Assembly (NCBI GenBank): GCA_039804165.1
Contig: JBDRZZ010000005.1
Coordinates: 27,290 to 91,289 of the forward strand
Source of the DNA: a candidate division WOR-3 bacterium
Lineage (GTDB): Bacteria > Hydrothermota > UBA3072
DNA: 64,000 nt
Direction: 5' to 3'
How positions within the stretch are numbered: the stretch's first letter is position 1; each line of letters begins with the position of its first letter. Of this stretch, positions 43,995-61,911 are shown piece after piece. A program made the position numbers and the translations under genes. The notes under the pieces were generated by a model. It searched no databases and was not told the DNA's origin. It saw only the letters and a program-made list of their open reading frames with translations.

Positions 43995-44587
43995 TTTTCT
44001 ACCCAATTTCTTAGGAGTTTTAGACCCATTTCTCCACTTTTTTCAGGATGAAATTGAACTCCTATTATATTACCTTTTTCTATTATTGAAGGATAATTCT
44101 TATAGTAATTGGTAGTAGCTACAATTATTTCAGAATCGATAGGTTCTACAAAATAACTGTGCAAAAAATAAAAATAAGTTTTATTTTTGATTCCTGTAAG
44201 GAGAGGAGAATTCTTTTTAATTTCTATTTCGTTCCATCCTATTTGAGGAACTTTACCTTTTTCAAATTTAAGACATTTCCCCTTAAAGATTCCAAAGCCT
44301 TTTGATTCTTTAGATTCCATACTTTCTTCGAAGAGAAGTTGCATACCAAGGCAGATGCCCAAAAAAGGTCTATTATTAATTAGCCAATTCTTTATTATTT
44401 CATAAAAACCATTTTCTTTTAATTTATTTATTGCTGCTTCAAAAGCCCCAACTCCTGGAAGAACAATTTTATTAATTTCTTTTAAATCTTTTGGCTCCGT
44501 TGCTACTATAGTCTCTTTTTTTAGAAAATTAAAAGCTTTCTTTACCGAGTGGAGATTCCCTGCACCATAATCAATTATTGCTATCAT
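43988..44587 (-). CDS. hisH: Imidazole glycerol phosphate synthase, glutamine amidotransferase subunit
   Basis: MIAIIDYGAGNLHSVKKAF...GICLGMQ...QFHPEKS. Confidence 0.9.
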   Translation of the reverse strand: MIAIIDYGAGNLHSVKKAFNFLKKETIVATEPKDLKEINKIVLPGVGAFEAAINKLKENGFYEIIKNWLINNRPFLGICLGMQLLFEESMESKESKGFGIFKGKCLKFEKGKVPQIGWNEIEIKKNSPLLTGIKNKTYFYFLHSYFVEPIDSEIIVATTNYYKNYPSIIEKGNIIGVQFHPEKSGEMGLKLLRNWVEKC

Positions 44588-45176
44588 TTTCTATTACTCC
44601 TTTTGTGCTCGGTATGTCTTCAATTGCTCTTTTATCCAATGAGCAAGCCATTTTCATTGCCTTTCCAAAAGCCTTAAAAATGGCTTCAATTTTGTGGTGG
44701 TCGTTTCTGCCATAAGGCATCCTTACTACAAGATTTGCCCCAAGATTTGTAGCGAATCCATAGAAGAAATCTTCGATAAGGTCTGTGTCTAAGTCTCCGC
44801 AAAATCTCCTTTTAAATTTTGCTTCAAATTGGAGATATGGTCTTCCGCTTATGTCCACAGCTACAACAGCAAGGGCCTCATCCATTGGATAAACAAAATA
44901 TCCTGCCCTATTAATTCCCCTTTTGTCTCCAAGAGCTTTTTTGAAGCTAAGACCAAGGGTAATCCCACAATCTTCTACAAGGTGATGTTGATCTACGTTT
45001 AAATCGCCAATTGCTTTTATTTGTAAATCAAAAAGACCGTGTTTAGCGAAATTCTCCAGGGAGTGATTTAAAAATCCAATTGGAGTTTCAATCTTGTAAG
45101 TTCCGCTCCCATCAATATTTAATTCAACTTTTATCTCTGTTTCTTTTGTTTTTCTTTCAACAGATGTTTTTCTCAT
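44571..45176 (-). CDS. hisB: Imidazoleglycerol-phosphate dehydratase (monofunctional)
   Basis: KTKETEIKVELNIDGSG...DQHHLVEDCGITLG...RNDHHKIEAIFKAFG. Confidence 0.9.
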   Translation of the reverse strand: MRKTSVERKTKETEIKVELNIDGSGTYKIETPIGFLNHSLENFAKHGLFDLQIKAIGDLNVDQHHLVEDCGITLGLSFKKALGDKRGINRAGYFVYPMDEALAVVAVDISGRPYLQFEAKFKRRFCGDLDTDLIEDFFYGFATNLGANLVVRMPYGRNDHHKIEAIFKAFGKAMKMACSLDKRAIEDIPSTKGVIENDSNN

Positions 45177-46221
45177 TTATAACCTCTCTCAATCTTTCAA
45201 TAAAAATTTTATTTTCTTTGGTTTTTCCAATTGTTACCCTCAATGTGTTTTTCAATCTTGGGTTGTCGAAGTATCTTAAAAGGACTCCCTTTTTATAAAG
45301 TTCTTCAAATAGTTCTTTTCCAGAAAGAAATTTTGTTTTAAAAAGGATAAAATTAGTGTAAGAAGGAATGGGTTCAATTCCTGGAAGATCTTGTAATTTG
45401 GAGAAAATATTCTCTCTTTCTTTTATGATTTTTTTTACAACCTCTTCTTTATATTCCTTATTTTTTAATAAAACCTCTCCCGCCACCTGGCTGAATATTC
45501 CCAAGGAGAAGGGAAGCTTTGCCTTTTGAATTTGGCTTGCTAAAGTTTCATTACTTAAAAGATAGCCGATTCTAAGGCCTGCCAGTCCAAAAGCTTTAGA
45601 TAGAGTTCTAATTATAACGAGATTTTCATATTTATTTAATAGGGGAACTGCGGTTTCCTTTGAGAATTCGAAATAAGCTTCGTCTAAAACTAAAACTCCA
45701 TTTATATTTTTTGCAATTTCTTCTATTTCTGGAAGAAAAATTGTTGTTCCTGTAGGATTGTTTGGGACTGCTAAAACGACCATTTTTGAATTTTTTCCTT
45801 TTTTGATTATTGATCTTATATCAAAACTGAAATCTTCTAAAAGGGGAACCTCTATTATTGTTAGATTCATAATTTTAGCAAGATAAGTGTATATTGGAAA
45901 ACTTGGAGAAACGAAAGTAACTTTATCTTTTTTTTCACAGAATGTTTGGAAGACTGCTTGAATTATTTCATTTGAGGCATTCCCTGCCACTATTCCATTT
46001 TTGGGAAAATTATTATATTTAGCAATTGCTTCAACTAAAGGATTGGCAGTTCGTGGCGGATATCTATTCCAGTTTATTTTAAGCATTCTTTTTAATATTT
46101 CTTTTTTTAAATTTAAAGGAACATCATAAGGAGACTCATTTTGATTTAGCTTTACTTCATATTTCTCTTGTGGAACTTTGTATTCTTTCAATTCCTGAAT
46201 TTCTTTTCTTACATATTTCAT
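45157..46221 (-). CDS. hisC: Histidinol-phosphate aminotransferase
   Basis: Class-II aminotransferase (NESPY...YPP...LSKAFGLAGLRIGY PLP lysine). First gene of the supraoperon, with RBS AGGTGGT. Confidence 0.85.
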   Translation of the reverse strand: MKYVRKEIQELKEYKVPQEKYEVKLNQNESPYDVPLNLKKEILKRMLKINWNRYPPRTANPLVEAIAKYNNFPKNGIVAGNASNEIIQAVFQTFCEKKDKVTFVSPSFPIYTYLAKIMNLTIIEVPLLEDFSFDIRSIIKKGKNSKMVVLAVPNNPTGTTIFLPEIEEIAKNINGVLVLDEAYFEFSKETAVPLLNKYENLVIIRTLSKAFGLAGLRIGYLLSNETLASQIQKAKLPFSLGIFSQVAGEVLLKNKEYKEEVVKKIIKERENIFSKLQDLPGIEPIPSYTNFILFKTKFLSGKELFEELYKKGVLLRYFDNPRLKNTLRVTIGKTKENKIFIERLREVINEKNIC

Positions 46222-46607: not shown

Positions 46608-47351
46608 ATGCTTAAATTAATAATTACCTCTGATTACGAAGAAATGAGTAAACTTGCCGCAAAATTAATAGCCGAAGAAATAAAGAAAAGAGAGCAAATT
46701 GTGTTAGGGCTCGCCACAGGAAATACGCCGCTTGGAACTTATAAAGAACTTATCAGATTACACAAAGAGGAGGGCCTTGATTTTTCAGATGTGATTACCT
46801 TTAACTTAGATGAATATCTTGGGCTTTCTCCAACAGATAGAAGAAGTTATAATTTTTATATGTGGGAAAATTTGTTTTATGAAATAAATATAAGACGAGA
46901 GAATGTTCATATTCCAAGAGGTGACACTTCAAATCCTGAAGAATTTTGTAAGTGGTATGAAGAGGAGATCAAGAGAGTGGGGGGGATTGATTTACAACTT
47001 CTTGGAATAGGTCGGGATGGTCATATTGGTTTTAATGAGCCAGGTTCGTCTTTTTCTGGGAGAACGCGGGTTAAAAAGCTTGCAGAAGTAACAATTAGAG
47101 ATAATGCGAGATTTTTTGATAATAAGATAGAAGATGTTCCTCATTATGCGATTTCAATGGGGATTGGCACAATTTTGGAAGCTGAAAAGATAATTCTTAT
47201 TGCAAATGGGGAACATAAAGCAGAAATTTGTGCCCGGTTTATAGAAGGTCCTGTTACAAAGCAGGTTCCTGCTTCTTCTTTACAATTGCATTCTGATGTT
47301 ACTGTGATTCTTGATAAAGCTGCGGCTTCCCGGCTTGAAAGAACAAGATGA
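46608..47351 (+). CDS. nagB: Glucosamine-6-phosphate deaminase
   Basis: VLGLATGNTPLGTYKELIRLHKEEGLDFSDVITFNLDEYLGL...GIGRDGHIGFNEPGS. Confidence 0.85.
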   Translation: MLKLIITSDYEEMSKLAAKLIAEEIKKREQIVLGLATGNTPLGTYKELIRLHKEEGLDFSDVITFNLDEYLGLSPTDRRSYNFYMWENLFYEINIRRENVHIPRGDTSNPEEFCKWYEEEIKRVGGIDLQLLGIGRDGHIGFNEPGSSFSGRTRVKKLAEVTIRDNARFFDNKIEDVPHYAISMGIGTILEAEKIILIANGEHKAEICARFIEGPVTKQVPASSLQLHSDVTVILDKAAASRLERTR

Positions 47352-48184
47352 AGGAAAGAAAAGTAAAAATTGCCTGGTATGGGAAACATTTTGGGGAAGA
47401 ACCACCTTTAGTGGGAGAGCTTTCTTTTGGGAATGGAAAAAATGGAGCTGGCACAATTTTCTTTTCCGGATGCAATCTTCATTGTGTTTTTTGTCAGAAT
47501 TATCAGATTTCTCAAGAAAATCTTGGGAGGGAATATTCCATTTTAGACTTAGCTGAGATTATGCTTGGGCTTGAGAGAGATGGTGCGCTTAATATTGATC
47601 TTGTTACTCCTACAATTTGGTGGAAAGAGATAAAAGAAGCTATTGTTATTGCTCGGAGAAAAGGGCTTTCTATTCCAATTGTTTGGAATTCGAATGCTTA
47701 TGAAAGTGTAAATATGCTTAGAGAAATGAAAGGTTTTGTTGATATTTATCTACCTGATTTTAAATATATGGATGATAAATTGGCAATGAAATATTCAAGA
47801 GCTTTTGGTTATTCTAAAATAGCTGAGAAAGCAATTAGGGAAATGTATAATCAGGTCGGTAATTTATATTTGAAGGACCAAATTGCAAAAAGAGGTTTAA
47901 TCATTCGGCATTTAATTCTCCCTGGGTATTTAGATAATAGTTTTTGTGTTCTAAAGAAAATTGCAGAGATTGATAAAGAGATTTATGTAAGCTTAATGAC
48001 TCAATATTACCCTCTGTATCTTGCAAAAAATTTTCCTGAAATAAATCGTTCTCTTACTGAAGATGAAATTATCTACTCAGAGAATAAGAGACTGGAACTA
48101 GGGCTTTTAAATGGTTGGAACCAAGAAAGAGGTTCTGGAGAGGTATTTTTGCCAGACTTTAGGAAACAAAATCCCTTTTCCTAA
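47348..48184 (+). CDS. Radical SAM protein (PflA/PflX-like activating-enzyme family)
   Basis: CNLHCVFCQN is a CxxxCxxC motif. The start overlaps the nagB stop (ATGA). Confidence 0.7.
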   Translation: MKERKVKIAWYGKHFGEEPPLVGELSFGNGKNGAGTIFFSGCNLHCVFCQNYQISQENLGREYSILDLAEIMLGLERDGALNIDLVTPTIWWKEIKEAIVIARRKGLSIPIVWNSNAYESVNMLREMKGFVDIYLPDFKYMDDKLAMKYSRAFGYSKIAEKAIREMYNQVGNLYLKDQIAKRGLIIRHLILPGYLDNSFCVLKKIAEIDKEIYVSLMTQYYPLYLAKNFPEINRSLTEDEIIYSENKRLELGLLNGWNQERGSGEVFLPDFRKQNPFS

Positions 48185-48375: not shown

Positions 48376-49470
48376 TTAACTTTTGGGGATAAAGAGGGTG
48401 AATTTAGAACCTTTATCCTTTTCGCTTTCTACTTCGATCCAACCACCCATTCCTCTTATTACGCTGTTGACAAAGAAAAGTCCTATTCCTGAGCCTCCTT
48501 CGTCTCCATTTTCTTCTGTTTTTGTTGTAAAGAAAAGTTCAAAGATTTTTTCTTTTACCGCAGGTTCCATACCGCATCCATTATCAGAAACTGATATAGC
48601 GACATATTCTTTTTCCTTTTCGTCTTTCTCAAGGCGGAAGATATTTCTGACTTCAAAGTGAATTTTACCCTCGTTTGATTCTCCAATTGCATCTTTTGCG
48701 TTCATTAGTAGGTTTATAAGCACTTGATGAAGTTGGTCTGGGTCTCCTATTACTAAGGGTTCTGGATCAAAATAAGAAGCTGTAATTGTTAATTTTTTGG
48801 ATAATGCTTGTTGACCTAAATGAACTACTTCTTTTACCACATCAATTACATTAAAGAGTTTCTTCTCTCCTCTAATTTTTCTTGTGTTAGAGAGAAGAGC
48901 TTTTAAGAGATTTTTTATTCTCCTTACCCCATCCGCACCTAATTGGACGTCCTCAAGGACTTCAGGGTCCTTTATGTATTCTAAGGCAGCATTAATTCCA
49001 TATGAAACTTCCATTAATAAATTGTTTGCTTCATGGGCTATTCCCCCAATAAGTTGTCCAATTGTTGCAAGCCTTCTTGAAGAAAGCATCCTTTTTTGGA
49101 GTATTTCTAATTTTGAGACATCTTTTGCCATTGATAAACCCCTAATTTGTGAACTCAAATTAAGGAAAATAGAACTCCATTCGTAAATTCTTTTACTTCC
49201 AAATTCAGGCTTTATTTCTATATTTTGGATGATTATAAAAGGCTCTTTTTCATCAAAGGCTTCTCCTTCAATATTTCCCTCTTTTTGAGCTTTAATTGAT
49301 TCCTGTAACTCACGCATAAGTGTTGGTTCTAAGATTTCCTTTATTGGTTTTCCAAATTCTTGTTCTGCCCTTCCATTCCAGAAAAGAATTTTGTAATCTT
49401 TGTCCCAAGCGATAAGAGGAACAGGAATAAAATCAAGTAAAAATCCCAATTCTTTTTCTATCTCTATCAT
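48376..49470 (-). CDS. Cytoplasmic PAS-domain sensor histidine kinase (orphan, no adjacent response regulator)
   Basis: PAS-like N-terminus, H-box LIGGIAHEANNLL, then N/G1/G2 boxes (DNGCGM, GSGIGL). No TM segments. Confidence 0.8.
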   Translation of the reverse strand: MIEIEKELGFLLDFIPVPLIAWDKDYKILFWNGRAEQEFGKPIKEILEPTLMRELQESIKAQKEGNIEGEAFDEKEPFIIIQNIEIKPEFGSKRIYEWSSIFLNLSSQIRGLSMAKDVSKLEILQKRMLSSRRLATIGQLIGGIAHEANNLLMEVSYGINAALEYIKDPEVLEDVQLGADGVRRIKNLLKALLSNTRKIRGEKKLFNVIDVVKEVVHLGQQALSKKLTITASYFDPEPLVIGDPDQLHQVLINLLMNAKDAIGESNEGKIHFEVRNIFRLEKDEKEKEYVAISVSDNGCGMEPAVKEKIFELFFTTKTEENGDEGGSGIGLFFVNSVIRGMGGWIEVESEKDKGSKFTLFIPKS

Positions 49471-49487: not shown

Positions 49488-49540
49488 AAAGGGAAGAGAG
49501 TAGGACTTTCTACTCTCTAAACCCTTTATTTTTGTTTTAT
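49488..49540 (-). terminator. Rho-independent terminator after the Hfq-like gene
   Basis: aaaggg-aag-agagagtag-gacttt-ctactctct-aaa-cccttt, followed by T-runs on both strands. Confidence 0.55.
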
Positions 49541-49542: not shown

Positions 49543-49740
49543 TTATTCCTCCCAGTCTTTCACTTCAAGATGAGAAATCGCACGATGGGAGACGAAAACA
49601 GATCGGTTGTTCGCCATTGGGGTTTCCACTTTTAGAAATAAACCTCTATCATTTCTTCCAGTTACAGTCCCTTCAAACTTTGATCCATCTATCGTTATTA
49701 TCTTTACATGTCTTCTTAACCCCCTTTTCCAGTCCACCAT
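49543..49740 (-). CDS. Divergent Hfq-like / Sm-fold small protein (65 aa)
   Basis: VKIITIDGSKFEGTVTGRNDRGLFLKVE aligns with the Sm1 motif, and VFVSHRAISHLEV matches the Hfq Sm2 motif YKHAIS. RBS AAAGGAGGAG. Confidence 0.5.
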   Translation of the reverse strand: MVDWKRGLRRHVKIITIDGSKFEGTVTGRNDRGLFLKVETPMANNRSVFVSHRAISHLEVKDWEE

Positions 49741-49764: not shown

Positions 49765-49902
49765 TTAACAATAACCTACAGTTCCATCACCGCTTAAGAC
49801 AATCATTCCAATTTCTGGATTACTTAAATTTTCTAATTTTGTTCCCTTTTTCAAAGACCCAACAAAACTTAATAAGATTAATAATACATTTAAAGTAACC
49901 AT
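49765..49902 (-). CDS. Unannotated 45-aa peptide with a hydrophobic N-terminus (MVTLNVLLILLSFVGSLKKGTKLENLSNPEIGMIVLSGDGTVGYC)
   Basis: ATG preceded by AAAGGAGGT at 7-nt spacing and TAA stop. Lies between a sigma54 promoter and the Hfq-like gene. Too short for the ORF track. Confidence 0.45.
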   Translation of the reverse strand: MVTLNVLLILLSFVGSLKKGTKLENLSNPEIGMIVLSGDGTVGYC

Positions 49903-49938
49903 ACGTACACCTCCTTTTATTCTTTTGTAATTTTTATA

Positions 49939-49955
49939 CGCAATACTCGTTCCAA
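49939..49955 (-). promoter_or_regulatory. Sigma54 (-24/-12) promoter
   Basis: Minus strand TTGGAACGAGTATTGCG matches TGGCAC-N5-TTGC with one mismatch and exact GG/GC spacing. An IHF-like site AATCAAATACTTA lies at 49974-49986. Confidence 0.5.
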
Positions 49956-50007
49956 AAAGATTAAGTTATTGAAAATCAAATACTTATATTGTTAAAAAGA
50001 GAAAATT

Positions 50008-50025
50008 TGTGACATTTATGTCATA
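50008..50025. promoter_or_regulatory. Palindromic upstream activator site 1 (TTGTGACA-N4-TGTCATAAAA)
   Basis: tgtgacatttatgtcata is near-dyad-symmetric (GTGACA/TGTCAT), about 55 bp upstream of the -24 element. Confidence 0.45.
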
Positions 50026-50072
50026 AAAAATTGCTTAATCTTTAGAAAGTATTGAAATTGCTGAATTTTTAT

Positions 50073-50090
50073 TGTGACAAAAATGTCATA
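50073..50090. promoter_or_regulatory. Palindromic upstream activator site 2 (second copy)
   Basis: tgtgacaaaaatgtcata, with the same flanks (ttGTGACA...TGTCATAAAA), 65 bp from copy 1 and immediately after the activator-gene stop. Confidence 0.45.
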
Positions 50091-50114
50091 AAAGGGACAG
50101 AAGAGGCGTAAAAT

Positions 50115-53100
50115 TTACTTTTTTATTTCAAATTCTTTAATTAGTCTATATAGATGTCTTTTTGAAATTTTTAAGTTTTCTGCGGTTTTTTTTATATCCC
50201 AATTTGTTTCTTCAAGAGCTAAAAGGATTGTTTCTCTTTCCCATTTTTTCTTTATCTCTGGCCATGAGACCTTTTTCTCTTCTATTTTTTCTCTTTTTAC
50301 TTCTTCTGGTAGGTCTTCTTCTTTTATATATTCTCCTTTACATTTAATTATAGAAATTTCTACAATATTTCTTAATTCTCTAATATTTCCGGGGAAGGGA
50401 TAATTTTTCAAAATCTCAATTGCTTCTTCTGTAAAGCCCTTTATCTTCTTTTCTCTTTTTTCTCTAAATATTTTTAAATAATGTTCAAGTAAAATGGGGA
50501 TATCAATTTTTCTTTCCCTTAGGGGAGGGATTGATATGTTTATTTGGTTTAAACGATAAAGGAGGTCTTCTCTAAATTCTCTTAAGAAAGCCATTTGTTC
50601 GATATCCTTATTTGTTGCAGAAATAATTCTAACATCGACCTTTCTTATTTCTGTTTCTCCCACCCTTCTAATTTCTCCAAGGTCTGTAACTCGCAAGAGT
50701 CCTGCTTGGATTGAAGGAGGAGCATCTCCAATCTCATCCAAGAAGAGAGTTCCTCCGTTTGCCTCTTCGCACATTCCCTTTTTGTCTTTTATTGCTCCGG
50801 TGAATGAACCCTTTTTGTGACCAAATAATTCACTCTGAAGCAAGGTTTCTGTTAGGGAACTACAATCCACAGTTACAAAGGGCCTATTTTTTCTTTTGCT
50901 TAAAGAGTGGATCGTTCTTGCAATAAGTTCTTTTCCAGTTCCTGTTTCTCCTGTGATTAAAACATTTACATCTGTTGGAGCAATTTCTTCTATTGTTTTA
51001 TATATCTTTTGCATTGGTTCTGAAATCCCAATTATTGAATGGAAAGAATGTGGAGGGGAAGTCATTTTTCTTAACCGAGCTAACTCCTCTTTTATTTGGT
51101 AAAGGAGATCTCCTTTTGCAAAAAGAATGCCGAGAATCCTTCCAATTGACTGTAAGAACTCTTTATCAGAAGGAAGGAAAATGTCTTTTTTTATTGTTGA
51201 ATCAAGATAAAGAACTCCATAAATTTTGTTTTTATAAGTTATTGGAACACATAAAATTGAACGGATTTTATTTCTCTGAATGGAATCCATTTTGTAAAAT
51301 CTTTCATCTATTGTTGCATCTCCTGTGATTATGACTTCTCCTTTTATAACTTTTTCAGTTATTGTTTTTGAGATCTTCCTTGCGTCCTGGAGAGTTATTT
51401 CATCTATGTTGTAAGAAGAAACAATAATATTTTTATCATTCTCTTTTAAAATTAGAGCTCCTCTTTCTGCATTTAGAAATTCTGTAATTGTGGATAAAGC
51501 TTCATCAAACCTTTTTTCCGAGTCAATTGAAGAAAGGAGTTTACTTATTTCGTCATAGGTGTAGATATATCCTTTTCTTAATGAAGTTTTTCTAGCGCAT
51601 TCTGCAAGAAGTTTGGTTGTTTCATTTAAGAAAAGTTCTGATTTTAGCTCCTTAAAAACTTCCTCTGCTTTTTTTAATTCTTCAATTGCTTCTTCTATTC
51701 TATTTTTTTGAAGTAAAATGGTTCCTTTTTTCAATTGTGTTTGAGCAATGTGGAAAGGTAGGCTAATCTTAGAGAAAAGCTTAATTGCTTTATCGCAAAA
51801 CCTTGGTTCCTCGTTTATAAAACCCCAAGAAGAAAGAAGCTTCCCTTTTTCAAAATTTGATTTTAAGGAAGAGATTTTCTCAAAATAAGGTTTTAGAGTT
51901 TCTACTGCCTCTTCTTTTTTTCCTTCTAAGAATAAAACTTCCGAAAGTTGTCGAGCAATATCTCTTTCATCTCTTGGGTCTCCTTTTGTTCTTTTTAAAA
52001 CCTCTCTAAAAATCTTCTCAGCTTCTTTTAGTTCTCCTTTCCATCTAAGAATTGTTCCTTCTAAGTCTCTTAAGTCATATTTTTCTTCTTTTAATTCATT
52101 TCTTAATCTTTCAACCTCAAGCCAATTTCCTTTATATAGCTCTCCTTCAAGTAATTTTGCCTTTAAGAAAGGTTGAAGCTTTCCATGCCTATTTTTAAAA
52201 TCTTCTATTTTCTCTTTTAATTTTTCCCAAAAACCAGTATTAAGATAAAGAATAGATAAACTTGTTAGACAAGGAGATTCAAGTTCTCCAATTTTTAATT
52301 TTTTGAAAATTGAAAGGGCCTCTTCAAGTTGTTTTAAAGCTTCCTTATAGTTATCAAGGCGTAAAAGGGAAATTCCTTTATATGTTATAAATATTGCTTC
52401 ATTTACAAAATCTCGTTCTTTTTTAGATATCTCAAGACATTTCTCAAAATATTCAATTGCCTCTTCATGTTCTTCTTTCTGTTGATTCGCAATCCCTCCA
52501 AGGGTTAAGAAATGTCTTTTTAAGGTAGGGGAGAGGTCTTTTTTTAGTTCCTCTTCAACAATTTTTAATGTTTTCTCAAAATCTCCTTTTGCGCAGAGAA
52601 ACCTTCCTTCAACAAATTTTAATTTTGGTGGTAATTCTTTTGCTTCATTTTTGTATTCCAAAATGAGTTTTTCTGCCTCTTCTATTCTTTCCTGTCTTAC
52701 AAGAAAATAACCTAACCAATAAATCCCTTCTTCTTTTAATTTTCCCTTTGCAAATTTAATTCCTTCTCTAAAATATTTTTCAGCTTCTTCTTTATTCTCA
52801 AGCCTATCAAAAATAGCTCCAATTTTTAATAAATAAAAAGGATTCTCTTTTTTCTTTTCTAAAAGTTCTTTGTAAATGGATAGGGCTTCATTTATCTTTC
52901 CTCCTAATTCAAAAACTCTTCCAAGAACCATCCGAAGAATTGGCTCATCTTTTAAAAGAAGAGCTTCTTGTAAAAATTTTCCAGCTTCCTGATAATCTTT
53001 CTCTTTTATTTTCTTTTTTGCTATTTTTATTAAAGATTCTCTATATTCTTTTTCTTTACCTAAGTCTTTTTCAAGAAGATGTAAAGACTCAGGAGTGGAG

Positions 53101-54740
53101 ATTCTTTTTTTTATTCTTTTATAAAGTTCTTCCTTTTCTTTTTGGGTCAGTTTTTTATAGAAGAAATCTCTTGTCCAATTAGAAAGAAATTGAATTCCTT
53201 TCTTATCTTTTTTTAATATGTTCTTTGAGGAAAGAGAATTAACCAAAGTGTAAGGATTTTTTATTTCAAAAATTGAAATTGAATTTAAAGGGAAGCTTTC
53301 CTGGAAAATGGATAGTTTTTTTAATAGTTCCTTTTCTTCTAAGGGAAGCTTTTCGAGTTTTGCTTTTAAATTTTCTTCAATACCTTTTGGTAAGGAAATA
53401 GATAAGGGAAGTTTCTCATTAAAGAAAATTTCATCTCCTTTTCTTTCAATTGCTCCTTCTAAAATGAGATTCTCGATTAGCTGATTTAAAATAAGAGGAT
53501 TCCCTTCGCTTTGTTTAAGGAGAAAAGAAGTTAGCTCTTTTTTATTTATAATCTTATTAGGAAAATTTTTGTTAATAATGAATTCAATTTCTTCTTTGTT
53601 TAAGGGAGAAAGGGTAAAAGAAGTTGTAATATCTTCTAATTCTTCTAATTCGTTTTCTTTATCAGGGCTGCTTATCACAATTAAAATAGGGCTTAACCTT
53701 ATTGTTGTTTTATTTTCTTTTAAGATAACTTTTATTTCCTGAAGAGAAGCATTATCAATAAATATAACAATGGGTTCTGTTATTCTTTCTTCTTTAAAGA
53801 AAAGATGGATTTCTCCGGAACTCATTTCTTTTATGTTTATTCCCTTTATAAGAGCTCTTATTTTGAATTCCCTTAAAAGAGCTGTTTTGCCAATTCCTTT
53901 TTCTCCTTTTATTAATAAAATGTGAGGCTCAGGCAGGTTGGAAAGATAAAACTCGAAATCCTTTATTTCTTTTTCTCTTCCAGAAAAAATTGTAATAAAT
54001 GAGAGCTTTCTTTCTTCTATTGTGGTTCCAAGAAGAATTTCTCTTTTTACATCTTCTATATTCTTAATCCTATTTTCAATTTGGGGTTCAATCATCCTCT
54101 GAATTAGAAAGTTTAATTCCTCTGGAATTAAAGGATTATATCTTTCTGGTGGGGGAAGACGGTTTTTTAGTTTTTCCTCTATTATTTTTGACAGGTTTCC
54201 TTTAAATGCTTTTTCTCCTGTTAAAATCTCGTAAAGAATTATGCCAATAGAGTAAATGTCAGAAGAAAAAGAAGGGACTTCTGTAAAGGCTTCTGGAGAT
54301 GTATATGTAGGAGTAATTATTTCCGGATTATATCCTGGATCGATCAACTTGACGTTATTTCTTTCATCCACAAATATGTGATTTGGTTTAAGATCGCCAC
54401 AGACAATTCCACGAGAATGTAGAACTGAAAGAGCATCAAGAATGGAGTTAAGAATATTTTTGATTTTGTCGAAATCTTCTTTTTGAGACGGTTTTACTTT
54501 GAAGACTTTGTCGATTGTTGGAGAAGAGATTTTTTCCATTGAAAAGCCACATTTTTCACCATCTTCAAACCACTCGTAAACAGTTACAAAATGAGGGTCT
54601 CTAATTTCAGAGAGAAGTTTAAATTGTTCGTAAAGTAAATCCTTCTTTAGAAGTTCTCCAACTTTGTATACAATTTCTCCTTTTTCGTAAATCTTTGCAA
54701 AATTTCCTTTTTTAATAAGATTAAATTTAGTTAAATCCAT
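50115..54740 (-). CDS. Giant multidomain sigma54-dependent transcriptional activator: Ser/Thr-kinase-like domain, AAA_16/STAND-type P-loop NTPase, TPR array, GAF, sigma54-interaction AAA+ domain and Fis-type HTH
   Basis: Kinase-like motifs (CGDLKPNH, DPG, SPE, DIYSIG). Walker A GEKGIGKT. About 500 aa of TPR-like repeats. GAF (ILCVPITYKNKIYGVLYLD). EBP core (VLITGETGTGKE, GSFTGA, LFLDEIGD). C-terminal HTH (ISKRHLYRLIKEF). No receiver domain. Confidence 0.85.
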   Translation of the reverse strand: MDLTKFNLIKKGNFAKIYEKGEIVYKVGELLKKDLLYEQFKLLSEIRDPHFVTVYEWFEDGEKCGFSMEKISSPTIDKVFKVKPSQKEDFDKIKNILNSILDALSVLHSRGIVCGDLKPNHIFVDERNNVKLIDPGYNPEIITPTYTSPEAFTEVPSFSSDIYSIGIILYEILTGEKAFKGNLSKIIEEKLKNRLPPPERYNPLIPEELNFLIQRMIEPQIENRIKNIEDVKREILLGTTIEERKLSFITIFSGREKEIKDFEFYLSNLPEPHILLIKGEKGIGKTALLREFKIRALIKGINIKEMSSGEIHLFFKEERITEPIVIFIDNASLQEIKVILKENKTTIRLSPILIVISSPDKENELEELEDITTSFTLSPLNKEEIEFIINKNFPNKIINKKELTSFLLKQSEGNPLILNQLIENLILEGAIERKGDEIFFNEKLPLSISLPKGIEENLKAKLEKLPLEEKELLKKLSIFQESFPLNSISIFEIKNPYTLVNSLSSKNILKKDKKGIQFLSNWTRDFFYKKLTQKEKEELYKRIKKRISTPESLHLLEKDLGKEKEYRESLIKIAKKKIKEKDYQEAGKFLQEALLLKDEPILRMVLGRVFELGGKINEALSIYKELLEKKKENPFYLLKIGAIFDRLENKEEAEKYFREGIKFAKGKLKEEGIYWLGYFLVRQERIEEAEKLILEYKNEAKELPPKLKFVEGRFLCAKGDFEKTLKIVEEELKKDLSPTLKRHFLTLGGIANQQKEEHEEAIEYFEKCLEISKKERDFVNEAIFITYKGISLLRLDNYKEALKQLEEALSIFKKLKIGELESPCLTSLSILYLNTGFWEKLKEKIEDFKNRHGKLQPFLKAKLLEGELYKGNWLEVERLRNELKEEKYDLRDLEGTILRWKGELKEAEKIFREVLKRTKGDPRDERDIARQLSEVLFLEGKKEEAVETLKPYFEKISSLKSNFEKGKLLSSWGFINEEPRFCDKAIKLFSKISLPFHIAQTQLKKGTILLQKNRIEEAIEELKKAEEVFKELKSELFLNETTKLLAECARKTSLRKGYIYTYDEISKLLSSIDSEKRFDEALSTITEFLNAERGALILKENDKNIIVSSYNIDEITLQDARKISKTITEKVIKGEVIITGDATIDERFYKMDSIQRNKIRSILCVPITYKNKIYGVLYLDSTIKKDIFLPSDKEFLQSIGRILGILFAKGDLLYQIKEELARLRKMTSPPHSFHSIIGISEPMQKIYKTIEEIAPTDVNVLITGETGTGKELIARTIHSLSKRKNRPFVTVDCSSLTETLLQSELFGHKKGSFTGAIKDKKGMCEEANGGTLFLDEIGDAPPSIQAGLLRVTDLGEIRRVGETEIRKVDVRIISATNKDIEQMAFLREFREDLLYRLNQINISIPPLRERKIDIPILLEHYLKIFREKREKKIKGFTEEAIEILKNYPFPGNIRELRNIVEISIIKCKGEYIKEEDLPEEVKREKIEEKKVSWPEIKKKWERETILLALEETNWDIKKTAENLKISKRHLYRLIKEFEIKK

Positions 54741-54846: not shown

Positions 54847-55527
54847 ATGGGTAAAATAATTGTGGTTGTAGATGATGAGGTTGATATTGTAGAGCTTATT
54901 TCTGTTAACCTGGGAAAAGTAGGCTTTAAAGTTGAAGGTTTTTATAATGCAGGTGACTTTTTAAATTTTCTTAAAAAGAGAACCCCTGACCTTATTATTC
55001 TTGATTTAATGTTGCCTGACGCGGATGGTTTTGAGGTTTGTAAATATTTAAAATCTGAGGAGAAATATGGAAATATTCCAATTATAATGGTAACAGCAAA
55101 AGGTGAAGAGGTGGATAAGATTTTAGGTCTTGAGATTGGAGCTGATGATTATATCACAAAGCCTTTTTCTACAAGGGAATTAATTGCAAGGGTTAAGGCG
55201 GTTTTAAGAAGGTTTGAGAAAGAGGATAAATTTGAGGTTATTAAGATAGGGGGAAACGTGGAAATTCTTCCTAATAAGTATAAGGTTATTGTTTCTGGCA
55301 AAGAAATTGAGCTTACTTCAACCGAGTTTAAAATTTTGGTTTTGCTTGCTAAGAGGAAAGGGTGGGTTTTTTCCCGAGACCAGATTCTAAATTATCTATA
55401 TGAAGGGGAGAGACTCGTATTTGACAGAACTATTGATGTTCACATAGCACATCTTAGGGAAAAACTTGGCAAATATGGAGGTTTTATTAAAAGTGTGAGG
55501 GGTATAGGATATAAAATAGAAGAATGA
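54847..55527 (+). CDS. phoB: OmpR/PhoB-family response regulator
   Basis: REC domain (VVVDDE...DLIILDLMLPDADG...ITKPF) plus a winged-helix output domain. Followed by phoR and pst genes. Confidence 0.85.
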   Translation: MGKIIVVVDDEVDIVELISVNLGKVGFKVEGFYNAGDFLNFLKKRTPDLIILDLMLPDADGFEVCKYLKSEEKYGNIPIIMVTAKGEEVDKILGLEIGADDYITKPFSTRELIARVKAVLRRFEKEDKFEVIKIGGNVEILPNKYKVIVSGKEIELTSTEFKILVLLAKRKGWVFSRDQILNYLYEGERLVFDRTIDVHIAHLREKLGKYGGFIKSVRGIGYKIEE

Positions 55528-57260
55528 AGAATATATTTTTTAGAATCTTTTTTGGGCAGTTAATTTTGATTAGTTGTGTTTCTTTATTTTTTGTTTTGTT
55601 TTCTTTTGGTTTAGTAAAAAGGTATTATGTTAATACTCTTACCGAAAACCTTGAAAAAATTGCTCTTTCTCTTAGAAGGACCTTAACTCCTTATCTTGTT
55701 TGTGAAAAATTCTCTTCTTTAGATTCTCTTGCAAAGTATATTGGAAAAGAGATAAAGGTGAGAATTACTGTAGTTGACTTAAAAGGGGTTGTTCTTGCTG
55801 ATTCCGAAGAGAATCCTGAGAAAATGGAAAACCACGGAACAAGGCCAGAAATATTACAAGCTTTTTATGGAAAAACCGGGATTTCTCTTCGTTTTAGCAA
55901 AACTTTTGGTAAAGATATGTTATATGTTGCTATTCCTATTAAAGATGAAAAAGGTGAGGTGTTTGGAGTTATAAGGTTGAGTTTATTTTTCACTCAGATA
56001 GATGAGCTAATAGGTGCTTTTGTTAGAAATTTACTTATTGTTGTTTTTTCGCTTTTATTTTTTTCTATTTTTGTATCTTTTTTTTATTCTAAATCTCTTG
56101 CAAAACCCATTGGTGAGCTTGTAAGTATAGCCGATGAAGTAGCTAAAGGTAATTTTGAACTTGAGGTTTTTGTAGAAGGTAAGGGAGAATTAAAGAGGCT
56201 TGCCGAAAGCTTTAATAGTATGCTCACTCGTATTAGAGAATTGGTTTCTAAATTATCAGAACAAAGAGATTCTCTTGATATTGTTATTTCTTCTATTGGA
56301 GAAGCTCTTCTTGTGATTAACTCGGATGAAAAGATAGTGATTGTTAATGATAGTTTTAAAGAGATTTTTAATGTAAGTGAAGTAAAAAATAAATATTATT
56401 GGGAGGTTTTTAGAGAACCTCAGTTTGGAGAAATTATAGAAGAAGTAAAAAAGAAAAGAGATAGCGTAGTAAAGGAAATAAAAATTGGAGAGAGATATTT
56501 TATATGCACTGCTAACTTTTTAAAAAAATATAATGAAGTTGTAATTACTCTTCACGAAATAACCGAGAAAAAGAAAACCGAATTAATGAAAAAAGATTTT
56601 ATTTCAAATGTCTCTCATGAACTCCGGACACCTTTAACTGCTATTAAGGGTTTTGTTGAAACTCTTTTAGAAACTCAAAAGGGTGATGGTAAGAGATATC
56701 TTGAAATAATAAGAAAGCAAACAGATCGTCTCATTAATATTGTTAAAGATTTACTTAGACTTTCTGAACTTGAAGAAATTGAAGAAGGGAAGATTAAAAT
56801 TGATTTTTCACAGGTGGATTTAAAGAAATTGATAAAGGATGTTTTAAGTATTTACGAAAAAGAAATGAAAGATAAGGGCTTGCGCTTGGTTGTTTCTATA
56901 GATAGAAGCGTTTCTAAGATTAAAGGTGATCCATTTAAACTCGAGCAGCTTTTTATGAATTTAATTGAGAATGCTATTAGGTATACAGATAAAGGAGAAA
57001 TAAAAATAAATGCAAGAAGAGAAAAGAGAGCGATTGTTATTGAAGTTTCTGATACAGGAATTGGAATATCCGAGGAACATTTACCAAGAATTTTTGAAAG
57101 ATTCTACGTTGTGGATAAGTCTCGTTCCCGTGAATATGGAGGGACAGGTCTTGGGCTATCCATTGTGAAGCATATTGTCCAATTACATCAAGGAGAGATA
57201 AGGGTTGAGAGTAAAAAAAATAAAGGAACAAAATTTACCATTATTTTGCCGGAGAATTAG
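55524..57260 (+). CDS. phoR: Phosphate-regulon sensor histidine kinase (PhoR-like: TM, HAMP, PAS, HisKA, HATPase)
   Basis: H-box SHELRTPLTAIKGF and ATPase boxes (DTGIGI, GGTGLGLSIVK). Overlaps phoB with ATGA. Confidence 0.8.
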   Translation: MKNIFFRIFFGQLILISCVSLFFVLFSFGLVKRYYVNTLTENLEKIALSLRRTLTPYLVCEKFSSLDSLAKYIGKEIKVRITVVDLKGVVLADSEENPEKMENHGTRPEILQAFYGKTGISLRFSKTFGKDMLYVAIPIKDEKGEVFGVIRLSLFFTQIDELIGAFVRNLLIVVFSLLFFSIFVSFFYSKSLAKPIGELVSIADEVAKGNFELEVFVEGKGELKRLAESFNSMLTRIRELVSKLSEQRDSLDIVISSIGEALLVINSDEKIVIVNDSFKEIFNVSEVKNKYYWEVFREPQFGEIIEEVKKKRDSVVKEIKIGERYFICTANFLKKYNEVVITLHEITEKKKTELMKKDFISNVSHELRTPLTAIKGFVETLLETQKGDGKRYLEIIRKQTDRLINIVKDLLRLSELEEIEEGKIKIDFSQVDLKKLIKDVLSIYEKEMKDKGLRLVVSIDRSVSKIKGDPFKLEQLFMNLIENAIRYTDKGEIKINARREKRAIVIEVSDTGIGISEEHLPRIFERFYVVDKSRSREYGGTGLGLSIVKHIVQLHQGEIRVESKKNKGTKFTIILPEN

Positions 57261-57310
57261 GTTTGTAAGTTTTGTTTTTATAGGGTCGATTAATAAGTCA
57301 ATTTTTAATC

Positions 57311-57349
57311 TTAACAAATACTTAATACTGAATTAATAAGAAATTAACC
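57311..57349 (+). promoter_or_regulatory. Pho-box-like array upstream of the porin gene: four 6-bp direct repeats at 11-bp periodicity
   Basis: TTAACA-aatac-TTAATA-ctgaa-TTAATA-agaaa-TTAACC. This matches the Bacillus-type PhoP box TT(A/T/C)ACA with 5-nt spacers. Confidence 0.5.
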
Positions 57350-57441
57350 ACTCTATTTATGGTAGATTGTGAAGACTAAGTTGTATGTTTGACTTCATTA
57401 AATGGTGTATTATAAACCTTTAACTCAAAAAGGAGGTTTTT

Positions 57442-58446: not shown

Positions 58447-58453
58447 AAGACTC

Positions 58454-58492
58454 TTAACAAAAACTTAACATTTAATTAATGGTTTTTTAATG
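58454..58492 (+). promoter_or_regulatory. Second Pho-box-like array upstream of pstS
   Basis: TTAACA-aaaac-TTAACA-tttaa-TTAATG-gtttt-TTAATG with exact 11-bp periodicity, about 30 nt upstream of the pstS RBS. Confidence 0.5.
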
Positions 58493-58522
58493 ATTGGATA
58501 GAATAATAAAAGGAGGTTTAAA

Positions 58523-59341: not shown

Positions 59342-59394
59342 AGTCAAATACCTCCTTATTTATGGGTTTGTTGTTGACACAGCTGAAAAAAACC

Positions 59395-59422: not shown

Positions 59423-59433
59423 AAATAATAAAA

Positions 59434-61900: not shown

Positions 61901-61911
61901 GAGGTGTTAAA

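What the first reader, a model, noticed from the sequence alone, without database searches (positions are those of the whole stretch)
49939..50090. Complete sigma54 regulatory architecture in the intergenic region: two identical palindromic UAS sites, an IHF-like site, and a -24/-12 promoter
On the minus strand, TTGGAACGAGTATTGCG (plus 49939-49955) matches the sigma54 consensus TGGCAC-N5-TTGC with correct GG/GC spacing. Upstream of it are two 18-bp near-dyads with shared extended flanks (ttGTGACA-N4-TGTCATAAAA) at 50008-50025 and 50073-50090, 65 bp apart, which is typical of paired enhancer-binding-protein sites. An IHF-like WATCAANNNNTTR match (AATCAAATACTTA, 49974-49986) lies between them and the promoter, where a DNA-bending site would be expected. 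The UAS pair begins only a few nucleotides after the stop codon of the giant activator gene, so activator, enhancer and target promoter form one compact unit.
Basis: partly seen in the sequence, partly recalled or inferred. Interest (0 to 1): 0.7.

Follow-up and report, generated by a model that had tools for sequence, protein, structure and literature searches.

The report
Conserved sigma-54 promoter beside giant activator
The stretch between a 1541-residue activator gene and two tiny genes in an uncultured WOR-3 bacterium is very probably a textbook sigma-54 control region, because every part of it recurs in eleven related genomes; the wiring is ordinary, but the sensor protein and its two tiny target genes are uncharacterised.

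Summary
All elements sit at the stated coordinates. Within-window statistics are weak: one site within two mismatches of the sigma-54 consensus, against 2.2 expected by chance. The decisive evidence is comparative.

In 11 orthologous loci (42-69% identical activators) the same parts recur in the same order and spacing:
- two or three 18-bp dyads, TGTGACA-N4-TGTCACA, 65-66 bp and about 21 bp apart;
- a palindromic IHF-like block;
- TGGAAY-N5-TTG[C/T];
- a GGAGG ribosome-binding site and the start codon.

In one sub-clade the unit has moved to a divergent position. There the dyad has changed to GGTGCG-N9-CGCACC, and the activator's recognition helix has changed with it (RRHLYRLIK to RRSLQLKIK). 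This ties the dyads to this activator.

The promoter drives a short, terminator-bounded operon that encodes a 45-aa hydrophobic, glycine-rich peptide and a 65-aa Sm/Hfq-fold protein of a very small family.

- the two dyads are not identical;
- a decayed third site lies next to the stop codon;
- the "IHF site" is a symmetric element, so its binding protein is uncertain;
- most orthologues have GT rather than GC at -12, as do Salmonella pspA and hydN.

The rpoN gene and the transcription start could not be tested. This is a new member of a known kind.

The parts
50115..54740 (-). Gene for the 1541-aa enhancer-binding protein. Domain order: atypical Ser/Thr-kinase-like domain, STAND P-loop NTPase (AAA_16/nSTAND3), TPR array, GAF, sigma-54 AAA+ domain with a GSFTGA loop, Fis-type HTH.
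   Evidence: Pfam domains. PF02954 (HTH_8) appears in the precomputed domain list of the identical protein P0001. Invariant motifs across 25 orthologues are. It is the only GAFTGA-like motif in the six-frame translation of the window.
50093..50110 (.). Decayed third upstream site (UAS1 remnant). Only one half-site, GGGACA, is retained. Its centre is about -174 from the predicted start and 20 bp from the centre of UAS2.
   Evidence: It aligns with a recognisable third dyad (2-3 mismatches to the consensus) in L084, L085 and L087, a perfect one in L088, and a more degenerate copy in L082, L083 and L090 (alignment A2; dyad scan).
50073..50090 (.). Distal dyad UAS2, TGTGACAAAAATGTCATA. It is one mismatch from the palindrome TGTGACA-N4-TGTCACA. 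Its centre is about -153.5.
   Evidence: It is conserved in orthologous loci, 65-67 bp (65-66 in all but one locus) from the proximal dyad.
50008..50025 (.). Proximal dyad UAS3, TGTGACATTTATGTCATA. Its centre is about -88.5, which is 62.5 bp upstream of the T of TGG.
   Evidence: The distance from the dyad centre to TGG is 59.5-64.5 bp in all eight cassette loci where it was measured.
49962..49986 (.). Conserved palindromic block, TAAGT-N15-ACTTA with inner TTGA-N3-TCAA, centred at about -46. It contains the exact IHF-consensus match AATCAAATACTTA (49974-49986, + strand). It is a putative site for a DNA-bending HU/IHF-family protein or for another dimeric protein.
   Evidence: One search gives the exact match, one of 2 in the window against 9.9 expected. 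Searches show the block conserved at the same distance from TGG. In the 11 loci scored (L092 was not) the IHF consensus is matched exactly in 3 and with one mismatch in 4 more.
49940..49954 (-). Sigma-54-type -24/-12 element, TGGAACGAGTATTGC. GG is at 49953-49952 and GC at 49941-49940.
   Evidence: TGGAAY-N5-TTGY is present once at the syntenic place in each of the 11 orthologous loci. TGGAA, T and TTG are invariant in alignment A2.
49927..49929 (-). Predicted transcription start, 11-13 nt downstream of the C of GC. The 5' UTR would be about 26 nt.
   Evidence: Inferred from the usual geometry of sigma-54 promoters. It was not measured.
49910..49914 (-). Shine-Dalgarno sequence GGAGG, 7 nt upstream of the start codon of the peptide gene.
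   Evidence: It is invariant in alignment A2.
49765..49902 (-). First gene of the target operon, a 45-aa peptide: MVTLNVLLILLSFVGSLKK... It has a hydrophobic N-terminus, a Gly-rich tail and a C-terminal Cys.
   Evidence: Orthologous peptides of 44-56 aa occur in all 9 loci that have the cassette downstream of the activator. Variable sites by codon position are 8/2/15, a coding pattern. It has no Pfam, NCBIfam or PADLOC hit.
49543..49740 (-). Second gene, a 65-aa five-stranded small beta-barrel protein with an Sm/Hfq-like fold. It is the only target gene found in both activator clades (11 of the 12 loci; decayed in L091).
49495..49518 (-). Intrinsic-terminator-like hairpin followed by a T-run. 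It would end the bicistronic transcript.
   Evidence: Comparable hairpins with different stem sequences follow the orthologous gene in L082, L083, L085 and L090.
48376..49470 (-). PAS-HATPase_c histidine kinase. It is syntenic with the cassette in most loci, but a functional link has not been shown.
   Evidence: Synteny is shown.

Best explanation
The 212-bp intergenic region 49903-50114 is an enhancer-dependent sigma-54 promoter. It is controlled by the giant activator encoded immediately upstream.

Proposed mechanism:
1. Dimers of the activator bind through their C-terminal Fis-type HTH to the 18-bp dyads TGTGACA-N4-TGTCACA. The dyads are centred near -88 and -153, and a decayed third site lies near -174.
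2. An unknown signal is read by the N-terminal kinase-like, STAND, TPR and GAF modules. It lets the AAA+ domains assemble into an active ring.
3. A conserved palindromic, IHF-consensus-like block centred near -46 is bent by an HU/IHF-family or other dimeric protein. This block is roughly midway between the proximal dyad and the polymerase. The bend brings the ring onto the closed complex of sigma-54 RNA polymerase at TGGAAC-N5-TTGC.
4. ATP hydrolysis opens the promoter.
5. Transcription starts near 49928. It yields a transcript of about 440 nt for a 45-aa hydrophobic, Gly-rich peptide and a 65-aa Sm-fold protein, and it ends at the hairpin at 49495-49518.

What is shown: the presence, order, spacing and evolutionary conservation of all these elements; the identity of the activator's domains; the co-variation of dyad and HTH; and the coding status of the targets.

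What is inferred: binding, bending, dependence on sigma-54, the start site and the inducing signal.
For: Activator:
- PF00158 at 6.3e-67 over its full length, plus AAA_lid_14 and GAF and HTH_8.
- Walker A, Walker B and the GSFTGA loop are invariant in 25 orthologues.

Promoter:
- It is the best sigma-54 consensus match in the window and the only intergenic one.
- No sigma-70-like site was found on that strand in the intergenic region.

Conservation:
- In 8 further loci with the cassette downstream of the activator, the same dyads occur with 65-67 bp (65-66 in all but one locus) and about 21 bp spacing.
- The proximal dyad centre lies 59.5-64.5 bp upstream of TGG.
- The palindromic block, TGGAAY-N5-TTGY, GGAGG and ATG recur in the same order. 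The activators are only 42-69% identical.
- Alignment A2 shows invariant columns clustered in exactly these elements.
- The 15-nt promoter pattern occurs 0.81 times per 64-kb window by chance. It is nevertheless found once at the syntenic place in every locus.

Co-variation:
- In the P0018-P0021 clade the regulatory unit lies divergently upstream of the activator gene (loci L086, L091 and L092, which carry P0020, P0018 and P0019).
- Its dyads are GGTGCG-N9-CGCACC.
- The recognition helix of that clade (P0018-P0021) reads ISRRSLQLKIKKL instead of ISRRHLYRLIK.
- Because the unit has moved there, the dyads cannot be the activator gene's terminator.

-12 variant:
- GT at -13/-12 occurs in validated sigma-54 promoters, for example Salmonella pspA (TGGCACGCAAATTGTATT) and hydN (PMC3844500).

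Transcription unit:
- A terminator follows the second gene here and in 4 orthologous loci.
Against: - No rpoN gene and no HU/IHF gene lie in the 64-kb window. The rest of the genome could not be read, so the existence of sigma-54 in this organism is only implied by the conserved GSFTGA loop.
- Within-window statistics for the -24/-12 match alone are not significant.
- The -24 element is TGGAAC, not TGGCAC, in every orthologue. C(-12) is T in 8 of the 11 orthologues, so the lineage's promoter departs from the proteobacterial consensus at two positions.
- The HTH and dyad co-variation rests on a single evolutionary event between two clades.
- The promoter pattern used to count hits in the loci was derived from those same loci.
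- The IHF-like element is symmetric, whereas IHF sites are asymmetric.
Confidence: 0.82

Rival explanations
1. The dyads are operators for a different dimeric regulator, for example a CRP/FNR-type protein, since TGTGA...TCACA resembles the CRP half-sites.
For: The outer bases of the dyad read TGTGA-N8-TCACA, which recalls the CRP consensus TGTGA-N6-TCACA. Binding by the activator has not been demonstrated.
Against: - The spacing is N8, not N6, in every copy in every locus.
- The dyads always travel with the activator gene, even after it was rearranged to a divergent layout.
- They change sequence exactly where the activator's recognition helix changes.
- They lie 60-130 bp upstream of a -24/-12 element, the usual place for an enhancer. 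They do not overlap a sigma-70 promoter, and none was found there.
Confidence: 0.06
2. The paired palindromes act at the RNA level. They would be a terminator or stabilising 3' structure of the activator mRNA, or a 5' leader structure, and not protein-binding DNA.
For: The two palindromes can pair with each other in RNA. The minimum free energy is -15.6 kcal/mol, z = -2.6 against shuffles, and a U-rich stretch follows.
Against: - The fold is the trivial consequence of two copies of one palindrome.
- The stems are AT-rich and are conserved in sequence rather than by compensatory change.
- In L083, L084, L085 and L090 the dyads lie roughly 370-1100 nt beyond the activator's stop codon. In L084 an unrelated gene lies in between.
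- In L086, L091 and L092 they lie upstream of the activator gene on the other strand.
- They lie upstream of the predicted start, so they would not be part of the target transcript.
Confidence: 0.03
3. The element between enhancer and promoter is not an IHF site. It would be the operator of a separate symmetric dimer, such as a repressor or co-regulator, or simply an intrinsically curved AT-rich spacer. This rival concerns only one part of the model. The rest of the sigma-54 model would stand.
For: - Conservation is dyad-symmetric: TAAGT-N15-ACTTA with inner YTGAT-N-ATCAR.
- The exact IHF consensus is met in only 3 of 11 loci scored.
- No HU/IHF gene lies in the window.
- From general knowledge, heterodimeric IHF is mainly proteobacterial.
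Against: - An exact WATCAANNNNTTR match occurs in a window where that motif is depleted, 2 found against 9.9 expected.
- 7 of 11 loci scored match within one mismatch at the same position.
- The element sits near the midpoint between the proximal dyad and the polymerase site, where a bend is needed because the loop is short, about 70 bp.
- From general knowledge, homodimeric HU/IHF-family proteins are nearly universal and could fit a symmetric site.
Confidence: 0.3
4. The match to the sigma-54 consensus is fortuitous, and the operon is transcribed from a sigma-70/sigma-A-type promoter or by read-through from the activator gene.
For: - 2.2 matches of this quality are expected by chance in the window.
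- AT-rich -10-like hexamers such as TATAAA follow the TTGC here, and TATAAT follows it in L087.
- No terminator is evident after the activator gene.
Against: - TGGAA, T and TTG are invariant at fixed spacing in alignment A2, while the surrounding bases drift.
- No conserved -35-like hexamer is present, and the sigma-70 scan finds nothing on this strand.
- The TA-rich hexamers after TTG are not conserved in position.
- The motif follows the target gene when the cassette moves to a divergent location, where read-through from the activator is impossible.
Confidence: 0.07

Closest known systems
NorR-norVW enhancer of Escherichia coli: a GAF-containing sigma-54 activator with three binding sites (from established knowledge; NorR is also described in PMC2941729)
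   Same: - The activator has GAF, AAA+ and Fis-type HTH domains.
- Several short inverted-repeat sites lie upstream of a -24/-12 promoter.
- The ancestral layout here also has three sites.
- The regulon is apparently a single adjacent operon.
   Different: - The activator here carries about 1050 extra N-terminal residues (kinase-like domain, STAND NTPase, TPR).
- The sites differ: TGTGACA-N4-TGTCACA here.
- The sites are spread over about 85 bp with a 65-bp gap.
- The targets are a micropeptide and an Sm-fold protein, not a detoxifying enzyme.
- The NCBIfam NorR model scores 304 bits against a cutoff of 476, so the protein is not a NorR orthologue.
PspF-pspA promoter of enterobacteria
   Same: - It has two upstream activator sites with an IHF site between them and the promoter.
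- The -24/-12 element has GT at -12: pspA is TGGCACGCAAATTGTATT (PMC3844500) and orthologue L082 here is TGGAACGATTATTGTATT.
- The regulon is small and local.
   Different: - PspF has no sensory domain and is controlled in trans by PspA, whereas this activator has a very large cis-linked sensory region.
- The gene layout is tandem or divergent, depending on the clade.
- The organism belongs to a different phylum.
XylR/Pu and NifA/nifH type IHF-assisted sigma-54 promoters
   Same: The general layout is the same: upstream activating sequences about 90 to 175 bp upstream, a bend site between them and the polymerase, and a -24/-12 core.
   Different: - The NifA site TGT-N10-ACA is not met here; the dyad is TGT-N12-ACA.
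- The TIGR01817 NifA model scores 357 bits against a cutoff of 529. The source annotation 'Nif-specific regulatory protein' is therefore not supported.
- The bend element here is symmetric.
STAND-class transcription activators (MalT, AfsR/LAL family) (from established knowledge)
   Same: A P-loop STAND NTPase plus a TPR-like sensor arm is fused to a DNA-binding output in one very large polypeptide.
   Different: - The output here is a sigma-54 AAA+ motor plus a Fis-type HTH, not a LuxR or OmpR-type HTH acting on sigma-70 polymerase.
- A kinase-like domain and a GAF domain are added.

Membership tests
Sigma-54 (-24/-12) promoter | GG and GC doublets exactly 10 nt apart within TGGCAC-N5-TTGC | tested here: met
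   TGGAACGAGTATTGC at 49940-49954(-). It matches 10 of 12 specified positions and is the best site in the window. One -24 position differs, C to A.
Sigma-54 (-24/-12) promoter | Intergenic position, oriented towards a gene, at a sensible distance from its start | tested here: met
   The T of TGG lies 52 nt upstream of the ATG at 49902. The same distance is 40-52 nt in the orthologues. The other 15 TGG-N8-TTGC matches in the window are intragenic.
Sigma-54 (-24/-12) promoter | Conservation of the GG and GC elements in orthologous promoters | tested here: inconclusive
   TGGAA and TTG are invariant in all loci examined. However, C(-12) is T in 8 of the 11 orthologues. GT at this position occurs in validated promoters, pspA and hydN (PMC3844500).
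Sigma-54 (-24/-12) promoter | The genome encodes sigma-54 (rpoN) | not testable with these tools
   No RpoN-box motif occurs in the six-frame translation of the window. Indirect support is the invariant GSFTGA loop in 25 orthologous activators.
Sigma-54 (-24/-12) promoter | Transcription starts 11-13 nt downstream of the GC and depends on rpoN and an activator | not testable with these tools
   This requires 5'-end mapping and genetics.
Bacterial enhancer-binding protein (NtrC/NifA class) | AAA+ sigma-54 interaction domain with Walker A, Walker B and a GAFTGA loop | tested here: met
   PF00158 at 6.3e-67 over positions 1-167 of 168. GETGTGKE, LFLDEIG and GSFTGA are present and invariant.
Bacterial enhancer-binding protein (NtrC/NifA class) | C-terminal Fis-type HTH that recognises inverted-repeat enhancer sites 80-200 bp upstream | tested here: met
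   PF02954 is listed for the identical protein P0001. Dyads are centred at about -88, -153 and -174. Dyad and recognition helix co-vary between clades. Physical binding was not tested.
NifA (the name given by one source) | Score above the curated cutoff of the NifA equivalog model, and the UAS TGT-N10-ACA | tested here: not met
   TIGR01817 scores 356.7 bits against a cutoff of 528.85. The dyad is TGT-N12-ACA. No nif genes lie nearby.
IHF binding site | Asymmetric consensus WATCAANNNNTTR placed between enhancer and promoter | tested here: inconclusive
   There is an exact match at 49974-49986. Across the 11 loci scored, the match is exact in 3 and within one mismatch in 7. However, the conserved block is palindromic, and no HU/IHF gene lies in the window.
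CRP/FNR-type operator | TGTGA-N6-TCACA spacing | tested here: not met
   The spacing is N8 in all copies in all loci.
Hfq/Sm (LSm) proteins (for the 65-aa product) | Five-stranded Sm barrel and membership of the Hfq or LSM sequence families | tested here: inconclusive

The most novel reading that the evidence does not exclude
The cassette would be a self-contained, NLR-like alarm circuit peculiar to one WOR-3 lineage. A STAND/TPR/GAF/kinase-like receptor is fused directly to a sigma-54 motor. Its whole regulon appears to be one tightly silent promoter. That promoter drives a lineage-specific Sm-fold protein and, in most members, a 45-aa hydrophobic, Gly-rich, Cys-terminated micropeptide that could be a membrane-active effector or a secreted signal. 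On this reading the near-zero basal activity of a sigma-54 promoter serves to keep a potentially harmful or signalling micropeptide off until the giant sensor fires. That would be a new type of sensor and effector pairing, not another metabolic sigma-54 regulon.
Probability: 0.15. Interest if true: 0.65.

Novelty: new member of a known kind. Interest (0 to 1): 0.4.

Why it matters
The finding gives a fully specified, testable cis-regulatory map (operator sequence, spacing, bend site, core promoter, transcript ends) for a sigma-54 circuit in WOR-3. WOR-3 is a phylum that is almost entirely uncultured, and no paper in the searched library mentions WOR-3 together with sigma-54.

It suggests a lineage-specific core promoter, TGGAAC-N5-TTG[T/C], which could be used to predict further sigma-54 promoters in these genomes.

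It links an unusually large sensor, which combines kinase-like, STAND, TPR and GAF modules with a sigma-54 motor, to a single small target operon. That operon encodes two uncharacterised micro-proteins. The regulator-to-target link, which is usually the hard part, can therefore be tested directly.

The mechanism itself is textbook, so the value lies in the members of the circuit, not in a new principle.

Tried and rejected
- The genome-contig scan with the whole activator used 8-residue exact patterns and found only an unrelated kinase.
Orthologous loci were obtained instead through the look-up of encoding contigs.
- An exact look-up of the window's activator protein found nothing, although the identical protein is in the protein collection.
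- My first sigma-54 pattern had the wrong spacing, 9 N instead of 8, and missed the site. It was corrected.
- I looked for rpoN and HU/IHF in the window by signature motifs and found none.
- Literature searches for WOR-3 with sigma-54, for kinase-fused activators, and two WOR-3 genome papers gave nothing on sigma factors.
- PADLOC gave only generic domain hits: RtcR/PspF-type AAA-HTH and PD-T4-6-type kinase. There is therefore no evidence for membership of a known defence system.
- NCBIfam gave no equivalog above its cutoff.
- I considered a RiPP reading, with the peptide modified by the neighbouring radical-SAM gene at 47348-48184. I dropped it because that gene is adjacent in only 3 of 9 loci, lies on the opposite strand, and resembles glycyl-radical activases only weakly.
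- I considered the terminator or RNA-structure reading of the dyads and rejected it (together with the positions of the dyads in the other loci).
Full report
**What is in the sequence**

On the minus strand a 1541-codon gene (50115-54740) ends with TAA at 50117-50115. It is followed by 212 bp of non-coding DNA. Next come a 45-codon ORF (49902-49765) with GGAGG 7 nt before its ATG, a 65-codon ORF (49740-49543), a hairpin followed by a T-run (49518-49495), and a PAS-HATPase_c histidine kinase gene (49470-48376).

- TGGAACGAGTATTGCG at 49954-49939 on the minus strand.
- The dyads TGTGACATTTATGTCATA at 50008-50025 and TGTGACAAAAATGTCATA at 50073-50090. These are the only two TGACA-N4-TGTCA sites in the window. 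They lie inside a 22-nt direct repeat with 65-bp spacing.
- AATCAAATACTTA at 49974-49986, an exact WATCAANNNNTTR match.

**Is it more than chance?**

Judged from the window alone, only partly.
- One site within two mismatches of TGGCACG-N4-TTGCW was found, where 2.23 are expected. 92 of 100 shuffles gave at least one.
- Dyad-like sites at up to 3 mismatches number 3 against 0.97 expected.
- The IHF motif is rarer than expected in this window, 2 against 9.9. A hit in a chosen 40-bp stretch is therefore unlikely, at roughly 0.005.
- The sigma-54-like site is the only one of the 16 TGG-N8-TTGC matches that is intergenic.
- The sigma-70 scan finds nothing on the minus strand of the spacer.

**The neighbouring gene**

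Its product has these parts in order:
- a protein-kinase-like domain at residues 36-226, which aligns only from position 45 of the Pfam kinase profile;
- a STAND-type P-loop NTPase (AAA_16, nSTAND3);
- a long TPR array;
- a GAF domain;
- a full-length sigma-54 interaction domain (PF00158, 6.3e-67);
- an AAA lid and a Fis-type HTH.

It carries the only GAFTGA-like loop, GSFTGA, in the six-frame translation of the window. An identical protein is recorded from a candidate division WOR-3 metagenome-assembled genome. About 24 full-length orthologues, 42-69% identical, exist. Walker A, Walker B and GSFTGA are invariant in them.

The protein reaches no curated equivalog cutoff. NifA, the name given by one source, scores 357 bits against a cutoff of 529.

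**Comparative test**

Eleven orthologous loci were fetched. In eight of them (L082-L085, L087-L090) the activator gene is followed, as in the window, by a 44-56-aa peptide gene. In most it is also followed by a 62-65-aa gene and a PAS kinase gene. The genes on the outer sides differ from locus to locus, so this cassette is the conserved unit.

Upstream of the peptide gene every locus has the same series of elements:
- Dyads fitting TGTGACA-N4-TGTCACA. They are perfect in L082, L088, L089 and L090.
- Distal and proximal dyads 65-67 bp apart (65-66 bp in all loci but L083), often with a third dyad 20-21 bp further upstream.
- A proximal dyad centre 59.5-64.5 bp upstream of TGG.
- A block TTAAGTnYTGATnATCARnAACTTA.
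- The core element TGGAAY-N5-TTG[C/T].
- GGAGG and ATG.

In the MAFFT alignment of eight regions (A2) the invariant columns cluster in exactly these elements, and the spacers drift.

The alignment also shows that the window has a decayed third site, 50093-50110, between the distal dyad and the stop codon.

The pattern TGGAAY-N5-TTGY is expected 0.81 times per 64-kb window by chance. It occurs once at the syntenic position in every orthologous locus. The pattern was derived from these sequences, so the count is illustrative rather than an independent test.

**A natural rearrangement as a control**

In the sub-clade of P0018-P0021 nothing related follows the activator gene (loci L086, L091 and L092, carrying P0020, P0018 and P0019). 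Instead, a unit of the same design lies divergently upstream of it. The unit consists of two dyads, a TAAGT...ACTTA palindrome and TGGAAYnnTTTTTGT.

In L086 and L092 this unit drives a 74-78-aa homologue of the 65-aa protein, with no peptide gene. There the dyads read GGTGCG-N9-CGCACC instead of GTGACA-N4-TGTCAC.

The C-terminal recognition helix of exactly these activators reads ISRRSLQLKIKKL. In all activators associated with TGTGACA dyads it reads ISRRHLYRLIK.

This has three consequences:
1. It ties the dyads to this activator and argues against another regulator such as CRP. The CRP spacing of N6 is in any case not met, since every copy has N8.
2. It excludes the idea that the dyads are the activator gene's terminator. 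The RNA fold of the region has z = -2.6, which merely reflects two copies of a palindrome pairing with each other.
3. It identifies the Sm-fold protein gene as the common target of the regulator.

The caveat is that this is a single evolutionary event between two clades.

**The core promoter**

GG and GC have the canonical spacing. The predicted start is near 49928, which gives a 26-nt leader.

Two departures from the proteobacterial consensus are fixed or common in this lineage. TGGAAC replaces TGGCAC in every locus. C(-12) is T in 8 of the 11 orthologues, while the window itself has GC.

GT at -13/-12 is found in validated sigma-54 promoters, for example Salmonella pspA (TGGCACGCAAATTGTATT) and hydN (PMC3844500). 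The L082 promoter, TGGAACGATTATTGTATT, resembles pspA closely.

**The "IHF site"**

The exact consensus match is real, and the block is conserved in position. Its centre is near -46, close to the midpoint between the proximal dyad (-88) and the polymerase site. A bend would be needed there because the loop is short.

The conserved pattern is dyad-symmetric, however. The IHF consensus is matched exactly in only 3 of the 11 loci scored and within one mismatch in 7. No HU/IHF gene lies in the window.

I therefore call it a conserved architectural or operator element, most simply read as a site for an HU/IHF-family dimer. A separate regulator remains a live alternative, at about 0.3.

**The targets**

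The peptide ORF is coding. Across six orthologues, the variable sites in the first 19 codons fall 8/2/15 by codon position. The hydrophobic N-terminus MVTLNILLILLSFINSLKK is conserved, while the Gly-rich tail varies in length and keeps the reading frame.

The 65-aa protein is much more conserved than the activator...GRNDRGLFLKVDTPMANNRSVFVSHKAISHLEIEGWK is nearly invariant. It belongs to a tiny family, with 6 representatives at E<1e-10 among 1.84 billion proteins.

A terminator-like hairpin follows this gene here and in four orthologous loci. The stem sequences differ among them. The sigma-54 transcript is therefore probably bicistronic, about 440 nt long.

**Verdict**

- the number and identity of the sites;
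- the nature of the bend element;
- the statistical basis of the promoter call;
- lineage-specific deviations of the core promoter.

The mechanism is the standard enhancer, bend and closed-complex remodelling scheme. In layout it is closest to NorR-norVW (a GAF-containing activator with three sites) and to PspF-pspA (an IHF site between the activator sites and a TTGT promoter). It is not an orthologue of either.

I rate it a new member of a known kind.
- a giant regulator that fuses STAND, TPR, GAF and kinase-like modules to a sigma-54 motor;
- its one apparent target operon, which encodes two orphan micro-proteins;
- a clean natural example of HTH and operator co-variation.

Three things could not be tested with these tools: rpoN in the genome, the transcription start and protein-DNA binding.

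Noticed in passing
window 49543-49740 (-); homologues in L082-L088, L090, L086 (2425-2661, -), L092 (2436-2660, -): A 65-aa protein is much more conserved than the activator next to it. It is predicted as a five-stranded Sm/Hfq-like barrel with a conserved (V/I)F(V/I)SHxAISH motif. Its family has only about 6 representative clusters among 1.84 billion proteins. It is the one target gene found with the sigma-54 unit in both activator clades, in all loci but L091, where it has decayed.
   Followed up: partly
window 49765-49902 (-); L082 8110-8244, L083 8301-8444, L087 7846-8013, L088 7844-8002, L089 9180-9350: A micropeptide of 44-56 aa has a conserved hydrophobic N-terminus with no basic n-region. 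Its variable tail is Gly-rich (GGGPNDGGGG in the distant clade). In the six closest loci, including the window, a Cys is the very last residue. No family match was found, and it is absent from the P0018-P0021 clade.
   Followed up: partly
window 54060-54740 (-), activator residues 1-226: The kinase-like domain is atypical. The Gly-rich loop is degenerate (KKGNFAKIY). CGD replaces HRD, DLKPNH has His where the Mg-binding Asn is expected, and DPG replaces DFG. All of these are invariant in 25 orthologues. It may be a non-RD kinase or a pseudokinase used as a sensor.
   Followed up: no
window 50028-50044 and 50055-50071: A second direct repeat lies in the spacer between the two dyads, 27 bp apart: AAATTGCTTAATCTTTA and AAATTGCTGAATTTTTA. 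It shares a CTTAAT/ATTAAG motif with the arm of the palindromic block. It is partly conserved in the orthologues (CAGnAATT ... AGTAAATT in alignment A2).
   Followed up: no
whole window: TGG-N8-TTGC is over-represented, 16 found against 5.5 expected, with no shuffle reaching 16. All copies except the one under study are inside genes. TGGACTATTTTTTGC occurs twice, at 22482(-) and 31431(+). WATCAANNNNTTR is depleted, 2 against 9.9 expected.
   Followed up: no
window 60213-60227 (+): TGGAATAGCGATTGT matches the lineage's promoter pattern. It lies about 70 nt before the start of the second pst permease gene (60297), inside the preceding gene. No dyads lie nearby, so it is probably chance.
   Followed up: no
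window 54847-62577 (+): A Pho-type cluster lies divergent from the activator gene. It has an OmpR-family response regulator, a Cache-HAMP-PAS histidine kinase, an unassigned 334-aa ORF, then a phosphate-binding protein, two permeases, an ABC ATPase and PhoU. On the other side, at 42040-46221 (-), lie histidine-biosynthesis genes (hisIE/hisF-like, hisA/F, hisH, hisB, hisC-like). Neither neighbourhood is conserved in the orthologous loci.
   Followed up: partly
L084 7824-8222; L089 7664-8804: The spacer between the activator gene and its enhancer tolerates insertions: a PDDEXK_3 gene in L084 and two unassigned genes (191 and 185 aa) in L089. The enhancer-promoter unit stays intact next to the target gene. 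The enhancer therefore belongs to the target, not to the 3' end of the activator gene.
   Followed up: partly
L091 2500-2700 (-): In this locus the Sm-fold gene behind the divergent sigma-54-like promoter has decayed to a 21-codon remnant. The next gene is a signal-peptide protein of 223 aa. L086 has a related secreted protein of 559 aa after its Sm-fold gene, and L092 has a 239-aa gene in the same position whose sequence was not examined. A secreted protein may thus be part of the regulon in that clade.
   Followed up: no
window 47348-48184 (+); L082 10073-10686 (-); L084 10549-10620 (-): A radical-SAM gene lies convergent to the PAS kinase in the window and in two of the eight orthologous cassette loci. 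It gives weak hits to glycyl-radical and NrdG-type activases. A link to the Cys-terminated peptide was considered and not supported.
   Followed up: partly
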